This document shows, in pieces, positions 1,833-29,457 of a stretch of 64,000 nucleotides of DNA. Numbering within the stretch: position 1 is the stretch's first letter; the number at the start of each line of letters is the position of its first letter. Origin of the DNA: Alphaproteobacteria bacterium (lineage in GTDB: Bacteria > Pseudomonadota > Alphaproteobacteria > G963923945); contig OZ000551.1 of the NCBI GenBank assembly GCA_963923945.1, positions 1,752,413 through 1,816,412 on the forward strand, in the 5' to 3' direction. Under the pieces are notes generated by a model. That model did no database searches. It was given only the letters and a program-made list of their open reading frames with translations, and was not told where the DNA came from. The translations under genes and the position numbers were made by a program.

Positions 1833-2569
1833 CTGAATGATCCTCTTTTTTGGTTTTATTTGGCTTTGTCTCGTTTGGTCTTGTCTCGTTTGGTCTTGTC
1901 TTCATCAACATTGATCTTATGGGGTGGGTGCATCCGGTTGATCCGGTTGGCAACCCGGTTGGGGTGGGGGGCTTCTGTTGCCCGGCGCCCCCCGAGCCGC
2001 GCTTGCTTTAAGTCACCAAAGGACTAAGCAGCGAGAGCCAATTCATTATCGTTGGCATCTATAAAGATGAGCCGTTAACGGCGGCATCCCACCGGGTGAA
2101 AGTCAAGCCCTTTCCACATGCGTCGATCCTGTTTCGCCCCCATTCTTACAATAAATAACCCCAAATAACTCCGAAATAATCCCGCTTATGATTGAGGCAT
2201 CGCTGTCATCATTGAAAGATATTGCAGTCGATATCGTTCATAAAGAGACATCCCGTATCAATGGTGGAGGCGCCGGGTACTGCCCCCGGGTCCGCCACGG
2301 GTCTTGACATGACGTTTATCACCATAGTCGGAAAACCATTGCTGACTAACCGACTCTATGAATATAAACTTTTAAACTTGAGCTTGCAAAGGGCATATGA
2401 CATGACGGCTTAACCCATTGGCGATGGCTGTGGCAATCGGGCAAGCTGCGTTTTTATTGCCAAGCCGATGAATAGATGGGTGAATTGATGAAAGAAAATA
2501 GATCAAAAAATATGACAGTCCGTGTTGTTATTCCTGTTTCATTGATCTGTGAACTGAGTCGAGGACCCT

Positions 2570-26245: not shown

Positions 26246-26321
26246 GGGCGCATAGCTCAGTTGGTAGAGCAGCTGACTCTTAATCAGCTTGTCCGGGGTT
26301 CGAGTCCCCGTGCGCCCTCCA
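26246..26321 (+). tRNA. tRNA-Lys (anticodon CTT)
   Basis: GGGCGCATAGCTCAGTTGGTAGAGCAGCTGACTCTTAATCAGCTTGTCCGGGGTTCGAGTCCCCGTGCGCCCTCCA folds as a cloverleaf; anticodon stem GCTGA/TCAGC with loop CTCTTAA; the CCA end is encoded. Confidence 0.9.
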
Positions 26322-26324
26322 TAT
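26311..26324 (+). repeat. att-like direct repeat, left copy (the tRNA-Lys 3' end)
   Basis: tgcgccctccatat. Confidence 0.4.
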
Positions 26325-26519
26325 CGCAAAATTATTGTTATATATCAATAAATTATTTCTTGCAGCATGTATGTATGTAGCGGGCGGGTTCGTTTTGCAT
26401 CGTTTTTTTGTGGATCACGTTTGTCGCCCTATGGGTGGCAAGGGTGTCAAGAGCTTCTGTTGCCAGGCCTTTTCTAAGGCCTTGATGATCGCTTGATTGG
26501 TTATGAAGGAGGTTTTTTC

Positions 26520-26993
26520 ATGAATCTTTACTCCAGCTTAACAAAAGAGGAAAAGAAAGAGGCCTTAAAAAGGCATCGTGCCTGGTTTCAGGAATGGCAT
26601 TCTCTAAATGAAATCGATAATTATTGGGAATCAAATGGCTGCCAATGCTTAATCTTTGAACCCGGCGGGTCTTTACGTGAAGCATGGGGCTTAAAAGAGT
26701 TTATGCATATATCTAAGGCTGGTAAGGGACGGCTGATCAAGGCTGATAGACCCAACTTTGAAACCGACATATCGGAAATTTGGGAGTTTACGGAAGTCCT
26801 GGATGGTGACCGAAAACGCAACGCTGAACACAAGGAAGCATTGGCTTGGTATCAATCTGGAAAAAGGGGGTCATTTATCAAGGAAGATGATCATGAAGAT
26901 CTGGAGCGTTCGGTTCAAAACGTGCCCAAACGTCTCAAAAAATGTGCAGAGAAAAAGTCCAGAAGTCATATCCCGAGGGCACAAAGCTTTTAA
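26520..26993 (+). CDS. hypothetical protein (islet cargo); possibly continues in another frame to 27214
   Basis: ATG at 26520 preceded by AGGAGG (26507-26512); no recognisable domain; the overlapping +1-frame ORF 26942-27214 could join through the A6 run at 26936-26941. Confidence 0.4.
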   Translation: MNLYSSLTKEEKKEALKRHRAWFQEWHSLNEIDNYWESNGCQCLIFEPGGSLREAWGLKEFMHISKAGKGRLIKADRPNFETDISEIWEFTEVLDGDRKRNAEHKEALAWYQSGKRGSFIKEDDHEDLERSVQNVPKRLKKCAEKKSRSHIPRAQSF

Positions 26994-27384
26994 TTTATCT
27001 TGATGTCATTGGCGGATATTCGGACCGCGCGCGAGAAATTCTGCCATGCTTTGTCCCATCCACGCAACCGGCCAAAGATGCGTTTGCAGAAATATGCATC
27101 CTTTGGGGTGAGGATATCTATCCATTATGGAAGGATGGTATGCCTCACCCAGAAAGAGGTAACTGGATTGAGCGCGACAGTGACGATGACTTAAAAAGAG
27201 ATGAATCAGGATAGGACCAACATTCAGTCGGATTGAGGCGAGATATGTAGGGGGTGTCAATGGGGCAAAATGGCCTACAGGTCAGTTATAATGGAATAAA
27301 AACCTCGCCGGGGTTGCGTTCAGTTTGGCGACCGGTGACGCCGGTTCCGGCGTAGGCTTTAAGATTAACGTCAATCAATCTTGT

Positions 27385-27414
27385 TTGCAGGGGTGTTCCG
27401 ATTTGGGTTATACT
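27385..27414 (+). promoter_or_regulatory. sigma70-like promoter candidate (TTGCAG-N17/18-TATACT)
   Basis: ttgcag at 27385-27390 and tatact at 27409-27414, about 15 nt upstream of the GAGGAG RBS and the ATG at 27429. Confidence 0.35.
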
Positions 27415-27428
27415 GGCCCGAAGAGGAG

Positions 27429-27620
27429 ATGGTGATGACCGAACAAGAACAAAAAGAGTGGGATTTGAAGCTGCGCGAGATTGATGCCCAGATCGCCAAT
27501 TTGAATGCCGCAACCGATAAATTGATCACCGAAAATCGTTGGTATGTTCCAGCCGTCAGTGCTGGCATTGCTTCGGGGGCCACCCTGGCGATTGTGGCCA
27601 TCGTCAAGCTGTTTCTCTAA
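27429..27620 (+). CDS. small tail-anchored membrane protein (coiled coil plus C-terminal TM)
   Basis: MVMTEQEQKEWDLKLREIDAQIANLNAATDKL... then AVSAGIASGATLAIVAIVKLFL; RBS and promoter-like hexamers upstream. Confidence 0.4.
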   Translation: MVMTEQEQKEWDLKLREIDAQIANLNAATDKLITENRWYVPAVSAGIASGATLAIVAIVKLFL

Positions 27621-27634
27621 ACCGCCGCCTTTAG

Positions 27635-28030
27635 GTGTCGCTTTACCCATTATTATCTGATCTCCCGGCCATGTTGACTCGGTTTCTGATTGCGGTTTTG
27701 GTCGTTCTGTGTCTGAGCGTGACTCCGGTACGGGCAGATCGGATTGATGGCAACTGGCTCCATCAAGTCTGTCATGATGGAAACGACCCACAGGCTCCTA
27801 CCGCATGCTCATCTTATATTACTGGGCTGTCAGACGCCTCTCATCCGGCAATCGCCACCAACCTGTTGGGTTTAACCGGCTACTGCCGACCAGAAGGGGT
27901 GACCAGGGGACAAATTATGGACATTGTCAAAAAATATCTTGCCGGCCATCCTGAAGAACGCCACCTCCCGGCGGTGGTGCTCTATTATCATGCCATCATT
28001 GAAGCTTTCCCCTGCACCACGGGTAATTGA
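27635..28030 (+). CDS. secreted cysteine-containing protein resembling the Rap1a/Tai4 (T6SS amidase immunity) family (tentative)
   Basis: Signal peptide; the pattern C..Y.TG..D.......GYC.PEGVTRGQ....VKKYL..HPEERH....VV....A....FPC recalls the Rap1a immunity fold; 15 nt downstream of the preceding small gene. Confidence 0.35.
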   Translation: MSLYPLLSDLPAMLTRFLIAVLVVLCLSVTPVRADRIDGNWLHQVCHDGNDPQAPTACSSYITGLSDASHPAIATNLLGLTGYCRPEGVTRGQIMDIVKKYLAGHPEERHLPAVVLYYHAIIEAFPCTTGN

Positions 28031-28314
28031 TAACCGGGTGGGTTGGTCCTGAAGTCGGTCCCACTGTACCCATCAATCGACCATCATTGACTGCATCCTC
28101 GTTGAGTCAACACGCGACCAGCCGCCTTTAATATGGGCAGGCGTGATCTTTGGCTTTGGGGCCAGCGGATCCCGACCAATCATCTGTTTGAACGAGTCTT
28201 CGCCATGCTGGGCTTGCAGAGTTTCGAGAAAATGAACAGCGTCATACGGGAACAATGACGCATAAAGGGAAGTGTATTTTGGTCAATGATTCCGGAAACG
28301 ACCAACTCCCTCAG

Positions 28315-28506
28315 TCAAAAGGATTTTTTAAGGCCAGCTTGTTTCAGTACGGTGTTTGCTAAATGCCGCGATTTGATTGTTGAATCAACAGTAAAGACCA
28401 CCCCCTCTTTGGTGACCTAAATTTCGTGATCCCCGCGCCCTTGACGCTTGCGGTAGCAACCATCTTTTTTGAGCAATCTTTTAAGTTCTCGCGTGTAATC
28501 CGCCAT
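28315..28506 (-). pseudogene. hicA: hicA-family toxin gene inactivated by an in-frame amber codon
   Basis: Reverse-strand reading: ATG at 28506 gives MADYTRELKRLLKKDGCYRKRQGRGDHEI, then TAG at 28417-28419, then VTKEGVVFTVDSTIKSRHLANTVLKQAGLKKSF in the same frame to TGA at 28315. The stop sits where HicA proteins have a conserved aromatic residue (GSHxI[WY]). Confidence 0.6.
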
Positions 28507-28762
28507 TTATTGGTAAAGGAATTGGGCCATTATGAGCAGAGAGTGTCACGACCGGAGATTCGGTCAAGCCTTTCAGCCCGCCATCTTCTATCAAATCTAC
28601 AATAACGATTGGGATTCTTTCAAAGAGCCGATCAAGGCTGGAATCTTCCAAAGCTAAATTGATATCGTTACTGGTCGCAATCCATACTTTTGCTTCTGGG
28701 TCAAAAGAGCAAGAAACAGAAATATCAACTTTTCCATGATTGGGCATCATTTTTCTCCCCAA
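28481..28762 (-). CDS. hicB: HicB-like antitoxin (DUF1902/UPF0150-type)
   Basis: ...VDISVSCSFDPEAKVWIATSNDINLALEDSSLDRLFERIPIVIVDLIE... matches the DUF1902 pattern; its 3' end overlaps the hicA start by 26 nt. Confidence 0.55.
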   Translation of the reverse strand: MGRKMMPNHGKVDISVSCSFDPEAKVWIATSNDINLALEDSSLDRLFERIPIVIVDLIEDGGLKGLTESPVVTLSAHNGPIPLPINGGLHART

Positions 28763-28911
28763 AAAAACACCCCCACATTTACTTTATTGAGCAATTTTAT
28801 CGTAACTTATTAATATTATTAGCGTCAAATTGCGGCCGCATGGAGCAGTTTTTCAGCGGGACATTTTTTCATTGATTGTGTTGAATAAATTGGCTTGTTT
28901 GGCAGGCCCAA

Positions 28912-28925
28912 TGCGCCCGCCATAT
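28912..28925 (+). repeat. att-like direct repeat, right copy (13/14 identical to the tRNA-Lys 3' end)
   Basis: tgcgcccgccatat, about 35 bp before tRNA-Glu. Confidence 0.4.
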
Positions 28926-28959
28926 TTCCACGATCATGGGGAAAATAGAAACAAAAACA

Positions 28960-29037
28960 TGGTGACCCCAGCGGGATTCGAACCCGCGTTGCCAGAATGA
29001 AAATCTGGTGTCCTAGACCTGACTAGACGATGGGGTC
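28960..29037 (-). tRNA. tRNA-Glu (anticodon TTC)
   Basis: The reverse complement GACCCCATCGTCTAGTCAGGTCTAGGACACCAGATTTTCATTCTGGCAACGCGGGTTCGAATCCCGCTGGGGTCACCA has anticodon loop TTTTCAT and is close to E. coli tRNA-Glu. Confidence 0.85.
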
Positions 29038-29457
29038 ATCGGTGTTTTCGCATGTCCATATAACAAAATAAGATCAAACGAAACCATGTGAAGTCTTATT
29101 TCACATTTTTTATGATTTTCACATTTTTTGCGACTCGGTAAAAATCATATGCTCTCTACTGCTGCATCAAATGTTCAATAATACAAGATAAAGCAGGGGA
29201 CAAGTCCCCTCAACTCTGAATCATTTTTCCTGGCATGTGTTGCCTGAAAAGCGGTGCTTTGGGTTCGACCGAAAGGGTCACCCGTCTGGCCACGGCCTCT
29301 TATTTGCGGCACTGTTGGCTGTATTGGTGTCGATTGCTGGGTGTATATACAGATATCGTGAATCATATTAAAACACCTGTACCCAACTTGGTTTATTGTT
29401 TTTATTGCCGTACTCCTGTAGCAAAGAGACAGGTCTTTTGATCCAGGGATTGATGAG

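What the first reader, a model, noticed from the sequence alone, without database searches (positions are those of the whole stretch)
28315..28762. hicB(DUF1902)-hicA module with the toxin killed by a single amber codon
Reading the minus strand from the ATG at 28506 gives a 63-codon HicA/YcfA-like reading frame (…GDHEI*VTKEGVVFTV…VLKQAGL). It is interrupted only by TAG at 28417-28419, exactly where HicA proteins carry a conserved aromatic residue; TGG or TAY to TAG is one substitution. The antitoxin-like DUF1902 gene is intact and overlaps the toxin start by 26 nt, so the order is antitoxin first. An orphaned antitoxin with a freshly dead toxin suggests recent toxin loss, possibly retained as anti-addiction. 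If the genome has an amber suppressor the toxin could instead be conditionally expressed.
Basis: seen in the sequence. Interest (0 to 1): 0.6.

Follow-up and report, generated by a model that had tools for sequence, protein, structure and literature searches.

The report
Toxin-antitoxin pair with dead toxin
This is an ordinary two-gene bacterial toxin-antitoxin module (DUF1902/HicB-like antitoxin, then HicA toxin) in which one G-to-A change has turned an invariant tryptophan codon of the toxin into a stop; I found similar decay in about a quarter of related loci.

Summary
On the minus strand, an intact DUF1902 gene (28747..28481) overlaps by 26 nt a 63-codon hicA frame (28506..28315). That frame is broken only by TAG at 28419-28417.

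With Trp restored, the frame passes Pfam HicA_toxin (35.1 bits, cut-off 27). The TAG column is Trp in 89 of 89 database homologues and in 66 of 67 metagenomic copies. The nearest homologous locus (L005) reads TGG there, so the lesion is TGG>TAG.

TAG is a normal stop in this window (7 of 46 long ORFs). None of the window's three tRNAs is a suppressor.

The DUF1902-then-HicA order is conserved in relatives, annotated on Thermus and Klebsiella plasmids, and experimentally validated in Klebsiella (Horesh 2020).

In 80 metagenomic DUF1902 loci, 18 carry a disrupted hicA and 4 have none. Dereplicated, 14 of 54 assessable clusters are disrupted and 3 more lack hicA.

The finding is therefore a real but commonplace toxin pseudogene beside a kept antitoxin. 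Sequencing error cannot be excluded without reads. The anti-addiction and amber-suppression ideas remain untested speculation. Interest is low.

The parts
28481..28747 (-). DUF1902 (HicB N-domain-like, no DNA-binding domain) antitoxin gene, 88 aa plus TAA. Alternative in-frame starts are ATG 28750 and TTG 28762.
   Evidence: Pfam PF08972 at 43.9 bits against a cut-off of 22. Identical to public gene call P0093. PDB sequence hit to TTHA1013/1wv8, E 2.3e-5. AF2 model has pLDDT 81.6 and strand-strand-strand-helix-strand topology. Best Foldseek match is 1wv8 (TM 0.77), followed by the HicB-like entries 2yzt and 3k6q.
28315..28506 (-). hicA toxin pseudogene: 63 sense codons, one in-frame amber codon, natural stop TGA at 28317-28315.
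   Evidence: Sequence read. Pfam PF07927 at 35.1 bits with Trp restored. 89 homologues of 63-65 aa at up to 69% identity. Subfamily HMM scores 98.5 bits across the stop.
28417..28419 (-). Amber codon TAG at codon 30, in place of the invariant Trp of the GDHEIW motif (TGG>TAG, a G>A transition).
   Evidence: The alignment column is W in 30 of 30, 89 of 89 database homologues and 66 of 67 metagenomic copies. The DNA alignment to L005 puts TGG opposite TAG. In the model of a 69%-identical homologue, W30 lies in strand 2 (residues 27-31).
28481..28506 (-). 26-nt overlap of the antitoxin's 3' end with the toxin's 5' end. There is no Shine-Dalgarno sequence upstream of hicA, so translational coupling is implied (inferred).
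   Evidence: L005 has the same 26-nt overlap geometry and near-identical junction DNA.
28799..28828 (-). Promoter-like site TTGACG-18-TACGAT upstream of the DUF1902 gene. This is a consensus match only.
   Evidence: 9 of 12 matches. Function not shown.
28755..28758 (-). GGAG Shine-Dalgarno sequence, 7 nt before ATG 28747 (4 nt before ATG 28750).
   Evidence: Read directly from the sequence.

Best explanation
This is a chromosomal type II toxin-antitoxin module of the DUF1902-HicA kind. The upstream gene encodes a small, single-domain HicB-like protein with a partial RNase H-like fold and no DNA-binding domain. [quoted passage not shown]

Here a single G>A transition changed the invariant Trp30 codon (TGG) to TAG, three codons after the catalytic His27. 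Translation therefore ends after 29 residues. The product keeps helix 1, strand 1 and part of strand 2, but lacks strand 3 and the C-terminal helix. It cannot form the fold, so the toxin is dead.

Everything else in hicA is still family-like, so the lesion is recent. The antitoxin gene with its promoter-like site is still intact, either because there has been no time for decay or because it retains some use.

Shown here: the sequence, both family memberships, the stop at an invariant Trp, the conserved gene order, and the commonness of hicA decay. Inferred: loss of toxicity, recency, and neutralisation by DUF1902 (by analogy with the Klebsiella 52P/31H experiments).
For: - Coordinates and frames.
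- Pfam HicA 35.1 bits and DUF1902 43.9 bits.
- W is invariant at the TAG column. L005 reads TGG at the aligned codon.
- All 10 invariant columns of the subfamily (G16 C17 R21 G23 G25 D26 H27 E28 I29 F38) and all nearly invariant ones except W30 and P33 are kept in the window.
- TAG ends 7 of 46 long ORFs in the window. The only tRNAs are Lys-CTT, Glu-TTC and Gln-CTG.
- The order DUF1902 then HicA recurs in L001-L004, in 54 of 80 metagenomic loci and on a Thermus plasmid annotated by RefSeq.
- Folds: the homologue model matches HicA structures 6g26_E, 1whz and 4p78_C. The window's DUF1902 model matches TTHA1013.
- hicA is disrupted in 18 of 80 related loci, by nonsense, frameshift, deletion or truncation. 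Dereplicated, that is 14 of 54 assessable clusters. One cluster of at least 93% DNA identity holds full, deleted and replaced hicA versions.
- Ten housekeeping ORFs in the window are full-length against Pfam with no split genes, so the assembly is not error-ridden.
- Literature: a DUF1902 antitoxin upstream of HicA neutralises it in E. coli, and orphan or degraded antitoxin loci are abundant (PMC7192599). Many DUF1902 genes sit beside hicA (PMC10865869).
Against: - No reads and no second assembly of this genome could be reached, so the TAG rests on one consensus base.
- No orthologous locus exists in the collections. The antitoxin has no relative above about 52% identity, and mmsA-anchored synteny failed. 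Recency is therefore judged only from retained conserved residues, not from a sister genome.
- The window's HicA also has Lys where a nearly invariant Pro33 sits, plus a 1-aa deletion in the strand 2-strand 3 loop. The deletion is shared with intact P0011. Some functional drift before the stop cannot be excluded.
- The rest of the genome was not available to scan for a suppressor tRNA.
Confidence: 0.8

Rival explanations
1. Sequencing or assembly error. The organism really has TGG at codon 30, and the module is an intact, functional DUF1902-HicA toxin-antitoxin pair.
For: - The lesion is one base at an invariant codon, and everything else in hicA is family-like.
- The source is a single 2.10-Mb contig with no independent assembly reachable.
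- Some related long-contig assemblies visibly carry split genes, for example L001.
Against: - Ten neighbouring and distant housekeeping ORFs in this window are full-length with no split genes, and all 46 long ORFs look normal.
- Consensus errors in long-read assemblies are mostly indels in homopolymers rather than a G>A substitution in ATTTGGGTC (general knowledge).
- Genuine hicA lesions are common in this family, so a real one is not surprising.
Confidence: 0.1
2. Conditionally or weakly expressed toxin. The amber codon is read through, either by a suppressor tRNA elsewhere in the genome or by near-cognate decoding. A small or regulated amount of full-length HicA is made.
For: - Nothing positive was found.
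- The frame downstream of the TAG is undamaged.
- The nearest relative, L005, also appears set up for very weak translation: ACG sits where the ATG should be, and no canonical start lies in frame. This could hint at selection for low toxin dosage in this sub-clade.
Against: - TAG is an ordinary stop for 7 of 46 long ORFs, including conserved genes.
- There is no CUA-anticodon tRNA among the three in the window, and tRNA-Gln is the wild-type CTG.
- No read-through context or structure is evident. The hairpin flagged at 28418-28395 is a weak consensus hit.
- An undamaged downstream frame is equally expected from a recent nonsense mutation.
Confidence: 0.03
3. The orphaned DUF1902 antitoxin is kept by selection as stand-alone immunity against related HicA toxins arriving on plasmids or phages (anti-addiction or anti-abortive-infection). 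The locus would then be a functional one-gene system rather than mere debris. This is compatible with the toxin being a true pseudogene.
For: - The antitoxin ORF, its Shine-Dalgarno sequence and a promoter-like site are intact, and it folds confidently.
- HicA of this subfamily occurs on Thermus and Klebsiella plasmids and on three phages, so incoming toxins exist in nature.
- DUF1902 genes without any hicA exist (L006-L008; L146, L154 and L166).
- An orphan Rap1a immunity gene lies 450 nt away in the same islet.
- The concept is established for CcdA and discussed for orphan antitoxins (PMC7354431).
Against: - If the nonsense mutation is recent, an intact antitoxin needs no selective explanation.
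- The antitoxin is only 27-52% identical to any other DUF1902 protein, so cross-neutralisation of foreign HicAs is doubtful.
- No close relatives exist from which to measure purifying selection.
- My survey picked loci through the antitoxin, so it cannot show that antitoxins outlive toxins.
Confidence: 0.12

Closest known systems
Klebsiella pneumoniae complex HicA toxin group 31H with DUF1902 antitoxin group 52P (Horesh et al. 2020, NAR, PMC7192599)
   Same: - The antitoxin is a small DUF1902 protein encoded upstream of a roughly 60-aa HicA.
- The toxin was shown to be toxic and the DUF1902 protein to neutralise it in E. coli.
- Klebsiella plasmid HicAs are 48-53% identical to the window's frame. 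Whether those plasmid HicAs belong to group 31H was not checked.
- The same paper documents abundant orphan or degraded antitoxin loci.
   Different: - In the window the toxin carries a nonsense codon.
- The host is a small-genome alphaproteobacterium, and the locus is chromosomal between two tRNA genes.
- The antitoxin sequence is very divergent.
Thermus thermophilus DUF1902 protein TTHA1013 (PDB 1wv8) and the plasmid-borne DUF1902/HicA pairs annotated by RefSeq (e.g. WP_096410628.1 / WP_126213131.1 on NZ_AP025615.1)
   Same: - The gene order is the same and the proteins are of similar size: DUF1902 is 73 aa there and 88 aa here, HicA 64 aa there and 63 codons here.
- The HicA is 64% identical.
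- The window's DUF1902 model superposes on 1wv8 with TM 0.77.
   Different: - The Thermus genes overlap by 1 nt, whereas here the overlap is 26 nt.
- The Thermus hicA is intact.
- The Thermus module sits on plasmids among IS elements.
Canonical HicAB (E. coli K-12; Burkholderia pseudomallei 6g26; Yersinia pestis HicA3B3 4p78; Streptococcus pneumoniae 5yrz)
   Same: - The HicA has the dsRBD-like fold with a catalytic His. The homologue model's top structural hits are 6g26_E, 1whz and 4p78_C.
- The antitoxin uses a partial RNase H-like domain.
   Different: - The canonical order is toxin first.
- Canonical HicB carries a C-terminal RHH or HTH DNA-binding domain for autoregulation, which the DUF1902 protein lacks.
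- Sequence similarity to solved HicAs is marginal (E 0.43).
Degraded toxin-antitoxin loci that leave orphan antitoxins (e.g. the Caulobacter parDE locus with a parE pseudogene, and the Shigella YacB frameshift; reviewed in PMC7354431)
   Same: The toxin is inactivated by a point lesion while the antitoxin stays intact. Anti-addiction is proposed as a possible residual role.
   Different: The toxin family is different. No experimental data exist for this locus.

Membership tests
HicA toxin (Pfam PF07927) | Profile match above the curated gathering score | tested here: met
   35.1 bits against a cut-off of 27 with Trp placed at codon 30, covering model positions 2-58 of 58. The 29-aa fragment that would actually be translated scores 25.0, below the cut-off.
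HicA toxin (Pfam PF07927) | [quoted passage not shown] | tested here: met
The 69%-identical homologue P0003 models at pLDDT 92.5 with H5-14, E18-22, E27-31, E38-42 and H48-57. Its top PDB matches are the HicA structures 6g26_E (TM 0.72), 1whz and 4p78_C.
HicA toxin (Pfam PF07927) | Conserved catalytic His in the Gly-x-His motif before strand 2 | tested here: met
   G25-D26-H27 is present and invariant in the subfamily. It aligns with the GSH motif of S. pneumoniae HicA 5yrz.
HicA toxin (Pfam PF07927) | Uninterrupted ORF encoding the whole domain (a functional gene) | tested here: not met
   TAG at 28419-28417 ends translation after residue 29. TAG is a normal stop in this window. The locus is therefore a hicA pseudogene, not a functional member.
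HicA toxin (Pfam PF07927) | RNase activity or growth inhibition | not testable with these tools
   Needs expression of the TAG version and of a TGG-restored version.
DUF1902 / HicB-like antitoxin (Pfam PF08972) | Profile match above the gathering score | tested here: met
   43.9 bits against a cut-off of 22. The conserved core residues D16, A19, V21, W22, E34 and L41 are present.
DUF1902 / HicB-like antitoxin (Pfam PF08972) | TTHA1013-type fold (three strands, a helix, a strand; partial RNase H-like) | tested here: met
   AF2 model has pLDDT 81.6 with E8-16, E21-26, E31-35, H38-56 and E66-71. The best Foldseek hit is 1wv8 (TM 0.77, E 3.5e-4), followed by 2yzt and the antitoxin 3k6q, then integrase and RNase H-like cores.
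DUF1902 / HicB-like antitoxin (Pfam PF08972) | Encoded immediately upstream of hicA on the same strand | tested here: met
   This holds in the window, in L001-L005, in 72 of 80 metagenomic loci where hicA is full or disrupted, and on a Thermus plasmid.
DUF1902 / HicB-like antitoxin (Pfam PF08972) | Neutralises the cognate HicA | not testable with these tools
   Shown only for Klebsiella 52P/31H (PMC7192599).
Canonical two-domain HicB (HicB N-domain plus RHH/HTH DNA-binding domain) | C-terminal (or N-terminal) DNA-binding domain for autoregulation | tested here: not met
   The protein is only 88 aa. Pfam finds DUF1902 alone, and the model shows no extra domain: residues 72-88 have low confidence and are coil. 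It is a HicB-like protein without a DNA-binding domain, not a canonical HicB.
Functional type II toxin-antitoxin module | Both partners intact | tested here: not met
   The antitoxin is intact, but the toxin is truncated at codon 30.

The most novel reading that the evidence does not exclude
The intact DUF1902 gene is not debris but a selected, free-standing immunity gene. It sits in a 2.6-kb tRNA-flanked islet that also carries an orphan Rap1a (T6SS amidase-effector immunity) gene. On this reading the islet is a small collection of 'antidote-only' genes that protects the cell against incoming HicA toxins from plasmids or phages and against neighbours' T6SS effectors.
Probability: 0.1. Interest if true: 0.45.

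Novelty: new member of a known kind. Interest (0 to 1): 0.15.

Why it matters
It matters little beyond correct annotation. The locus should be labelled as a hicA pseudogene plus a DUF1902-family (HicB-like) antitoxin, not as an active toxin-antitoxin system.

The survey made here has modest general value. In this DUF1902-HicA family, roughly a quarter of environmental loci show independent toxin lesions beside a recognisable antitoxin. One set of near-identical sequences holds intact, deleted and replaced toxin versions. This fits the known picture of chromosomal toxin-antitoxin modules as rapidly decaying elements that leave orphan antitoxins.

If the antitoxin were shown to be retained as cross-protecting immunity, it would add a HicA/DUF1902 example to the thin experimental record for anti-addiction.

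Tried and rejected
- **Independent copies of the source genome.** Exact-protein look-ups of the DUF1902 product in three start variants, of P0093 and of the neighbouring mmsA all returned nothing on record. The cluster look-up shows the source to be a 2,099,932-bp contig whose proteins are singletons at 90% identity. The TAG could not be checked in a second assembly.
- **Orthologous loci.** A genome-contig scan with DUF1902 found no relative. A scan anchored on the adjacent mmsA gave 80 Hyphomicrobiales-type loci at 74% identity or less. None carries hicA, DUF1902, rodA or recJ nearby, so there is no synteny.
- **NCBIfam.** No hit for either protein.
- **Broad DUF1902 alignment.** Alignment A3 was too diverse for the metagenome scan. 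A narrower one, A5, worked.
- **Strongest non-self DUF1902 hit.** P0094 (1897 aa, E 1.6e-19) is a repeat protein matching through a short recurring motif. I rejected it as spurious.
- **Mobile-element signatures.** There is no att-like repeat of the tRNA-Glu 3' end and no convincing direct or inverted repeats. The islet DNA has no match in plasmids, and no integrase was seen.
- **Genetic-code reassignment of TAG.** Rejected, because 7 of 46 long ORFs end in TAG.
- **Internal restart.** The GTG at 28401 has GGGGG directly abutting it, with no proper spacing. The 28-aa product has no Pfam match. I did not consider it functional.

Full report
**1. What is in the sequence**

On the minus strand, an ORF ends with TAA at 28483-28481. 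It can start at TTG 28762, ATG 28750 or ATG 28747. The public gene call for this exact protein (P0093, 88 aa) uses ATG 28747, which sits 7 nt after a GGAG.

A second frame starts at ATG 28506, 26 nt before that stop. It reads MADYTRELKRLLKKDGCYRKRQGRGDHEI, then TAG (28419-28417), then VTKEGVVFTVDSTIKSRHLANTVLKQAGLKKSF, then TGA (28317-28315).

**2. Family assignment**

- With Trp at codon 30, the second frame matches Pfam HicA_toxin over the whole model (35.1 bits, cut-off 27).
- The 29-residue product that would actually be made scores 25.0 bits, below the cut-off.
- The upstream protein matches DUF1902 at 43.9 bits (cut-off 22). NCBIfam has no model that hits either protein.
- A search of 5.8 billion proteins found 89 HicA homologues of 63-65 aa, up to 69% identical. 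An HMM built from 31 of these scores the interrupted window frame at 98.5 bits straight across the stop. This is a genuine hicA frame, not a chance ORF.
- A structure model of the 69%-identical homologue P0003 (pLDDT 92.5) has the helix, three strands and helix expected of HicA. Its three best PDB matches are HicA structures from Burkholderia, Thermus and Yersinia.
- The window's DUF1902 protein models at pLDDT 81.6 as strand-strand-strand-helix-strand. It superposes best on TTHA1013 (1wv8, TM 0.77), then on other HicB-like antitoxin structures and RNase H-like cores. By sequence it also hits 1wv8 (E 2.3e-5). It has no DNA-binding domain.

**3. The stop codon**

- The TAG column is Trp in all 30 aligned homologues, in all 89 database homologues and in 66 of 67 metagenomic copies that cover it.
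- It is the W of an invariant G-D-H-E-I-W motif and lies in strand 2, three residues after the presumed catalytic His27.
- The nearest homologous locus, L005, aligns at the DNA level and reads TGG opposite the TAG. The lesion is therefore TGG>TAG, a single G>A transition.
- All ten invariant columns and all nearly invariant ones are retained in the window, except W30 itself and P33 (Lys here, next to a 1-aa loop deletion that intact P0011 also has). This argues that the stop is young.
- TAG is used as an ordinary stop by 7 of 46 long ORFs in the window.
- The only tRNAs present are Lys-CTT, Glu-TTC and Gln-CTG, plus a permuted alphaproteobacterial tmRNA. Nothing supports suppression or reassignment, although the rest of the genome could not be scanned.

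**4. Related loci**

- The order DUF1902 then HicA recurs next to the closest HicA homologues (L001-L004). It also occurs on a Thermus thermophilus plasmid, where RefSeq annotates exactly this pair.
- HicAs of this subfamily also occur on Klebsiella and Enterobacter plasmids and in three phages.
- The window's antitoxin is unusually divergent. An exhaustive HMMER search found nothing closer than about 52% identity over the core.
- The closest such locus, L005 (from a 2.07-Mb contig), shares the 26-nt overlap and near-identical junction DNA. There the hicA start codon position reads ACG, and there is no canonical start in frame. The next closest loci, L006-L008, have no hicA at all.

I then fetched 80 metagenomic DUF1902 loci and scored their six-frame translations with the HicA HMM:

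| hicA state downstream of DUF1902 | Loci (of 80) |
|---|---|
| Full-length | 54 |
| Disrupted | 18 |
| Absent despite enough flank | 4 |
| Not assessable (contig end) | 4 |

The disruptions include nonsense codons (L148, L121/L122), frameshifts (L117, L145, L135), 5' deletions (L120, L127/L129, L150, L123, L158) and 3' truncations or replacements (L098, L112/L116, L124, L136/L138).

After dereplication at 95% DNA identity there are 56 clusters, of which 54 are assessable. Of these, 14 contain a disrupted hicA and 3 lack it. In one cluster, L134 is intact, L150 has a 91-nt internal deletion, and L166 loses homology after about codon 10.

Two caveats apply. The loci were ascertained through the antitoxin, so this says nothing about relative decay rates. 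Some metagenomic lesions may also be assembly artefacts.

**5. Context**

The module lies in a 2.6-kb stretch between tRNA-Lys (26246-26321, plus strand) and tRNA-Glu (28960-29037, minus strand). This stretch is flanked by core genes: mreB…PBP2-rodA on one side and mmsA and recJ on the other.

G+C falls to 0.41-0.46 at both ends of the stretch, against about 0.50 for the window. Most of its small ORFs have no Pfam match. One (27635-28030) is a Rap1a-family T6SS immunity protein with no effector beside it.

No integrase, att repeat or plasmid similarity was found. The host is an alphaproteobacterium whose mmsA is at most 74% identical to Hyphomicrobiales genes.

**6. Mechanism**

In intact members the DUF1902 protein is made first and HicA is translated from the overlapping frame. 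Coupling is inferred from the overlap and the lack of a Shine-Dalgarno sequence. DUF1902 then binds HicA and blocks its RNase activity. This has been shown experimentally for the Klebsiella DUF1902 antitoxin 52P and HicA 31H (PMC7192599) and is noted bioinformatically by Gerdes (PMC10865869).

In the window, translation stops after residue 29. Half of strand 2, strand 3 and the C-terminal helix are missing, so no folded toxin can form (inferred from the model). What remains is an antitoxin gene with an apparently intact ribosome-binding site and a promoter-like site.

**7. Rivals**

- **Sequencing error (about 0.1).** This cannot be excluded without reads. However, ten other ORFs are full-length against Pfam and none is split.
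- **Read-through or suppression (about 0.03).** There is no positive evidence.
- **Selected retention of the antitoxin as anti-addiction immunity (about 0.12).** This is compatible with the pseudogene reading. It is plausible in principle (PMC7354431) and is hinted at by the neighbouring orphan Rap1a gene. It is untested, and a recent lesion makes it unnecessary as an explanation.

**8. Verdict**

Both the module type (DUF1902-HicA) and the phenomenon (a toxin pseudogene beside an orphaned antitoxin) are already described, and my survey shows the phenomenon is frequent in this very family. It is a new member of a known kind and of low interest.

Noticed in passing
window 27635-28030 (+): A 131-aa ORF with an N-terminal signal-like hydrophobic stretch matches Rap1a, a T6SS amidase-effector immunity protein (PF18602, 69.9 bits). 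No effector-like gene lies beside it. It is therefore an orphan immunity gene only about 450 nt from the orphaned antitoxin.
   Followed up: partly
window 26322-28959: A 2.6-kb islet lies between tRNA-Lys (26246-26321, +) and tRNA-Glu (28960-29037, -), inside a core-gene neighbourhood (mreB…PBP2-rodA on one side, mmsA-recJ on the other). G+C falls to 0.41-0.46 at its two ends. Most of its small ORFs have no Pfam match. No integrase, att repeat or plasmid match was found. ORFs 26493-26993 and 26942-27214 overlap by 52 nt in different frames and could be one frameshifted gene.
   Followed up: partly
L005 2320-2538 (contig ERZ25067576:ctg10958_20x_c, 2.07 Mb): This is the closest homologous module. 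Its hicA was not called as a gene. The frame is open with TGG intact, but ACG sits where the window has ATG, and there is no ATG, GTG or TTG in frame after the upstream TAG. It also has Tyr in place of the otherwise invariant Cys17. This may be a second, independent way of silencing or attenuating the toxin.
   Followed up: partly
L134 / L150 / L166 (metagenomic contigs): DUF1902 regions at least 93-96% identical carry three hicA states: intact (L134), a 91-nt internal deletion (L150), and a replaced 3' part after about codon 10 (L166). This looks like toxin loss caught in near-identical backgrounds.
   Followed up: yes
L120, L127/L129, L150: Several metagenomic loci have deletions that join the DUF1902 C-terminal region (…ELLEANG…) directly to the 3' half of hicA. 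This suggests recurrent deletions across the gene junction.
   Followed up: no
window 1933-2393 (-): A permuted (two-piece) alphaproteobacterial tmRNA (Rfam alpha_tmRNA, 216.9 bits) with tag peptide ANDNELALAA.
   Followed up: no
window 29099-29149: An exact 13-nt direct repeat TTTCACATTTTTT occurs twice, 18 nt apart (29099-29111 and 29117-29129). It overlaps a 12-nt inverted repeat (29111-29122 / 29138-29149). The region lies in the AT-rich spacer between tRNA-Glu and mmsA and may be a regulatory site for mmsA.
   Followed up: no
window 28395-28418 (-): A terminator-like hairpin flagged by the consensus scan begins exactly at the amber codon (AGGTCACCAAAGAGGGGGTGGTCT followed by TTACTGTTGA). 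The T-tail is weak, so this is probably chance.
   Followed up: no
whole window / source contig: Three window proteins are singleton clusters at 90% identity on a 2,099,932-bp contig. The best mmsA relatives reach only 74% identity (Hyphomicrobiales). The host appears to be a small-genome alphaproteobacterial lineage without close sequenced relatives.
   Followed up: partly
L001 713-2390 and 5061-5830: The contig carrying the intact homologue P0011 has a GMC oxidoreductase split into three adjacent genes and a CT_C_D gene split into two. This suggests frameshift errors in that assembly and is a reminder that single-assembly pseudogene calls need read support.
   Followed up: no
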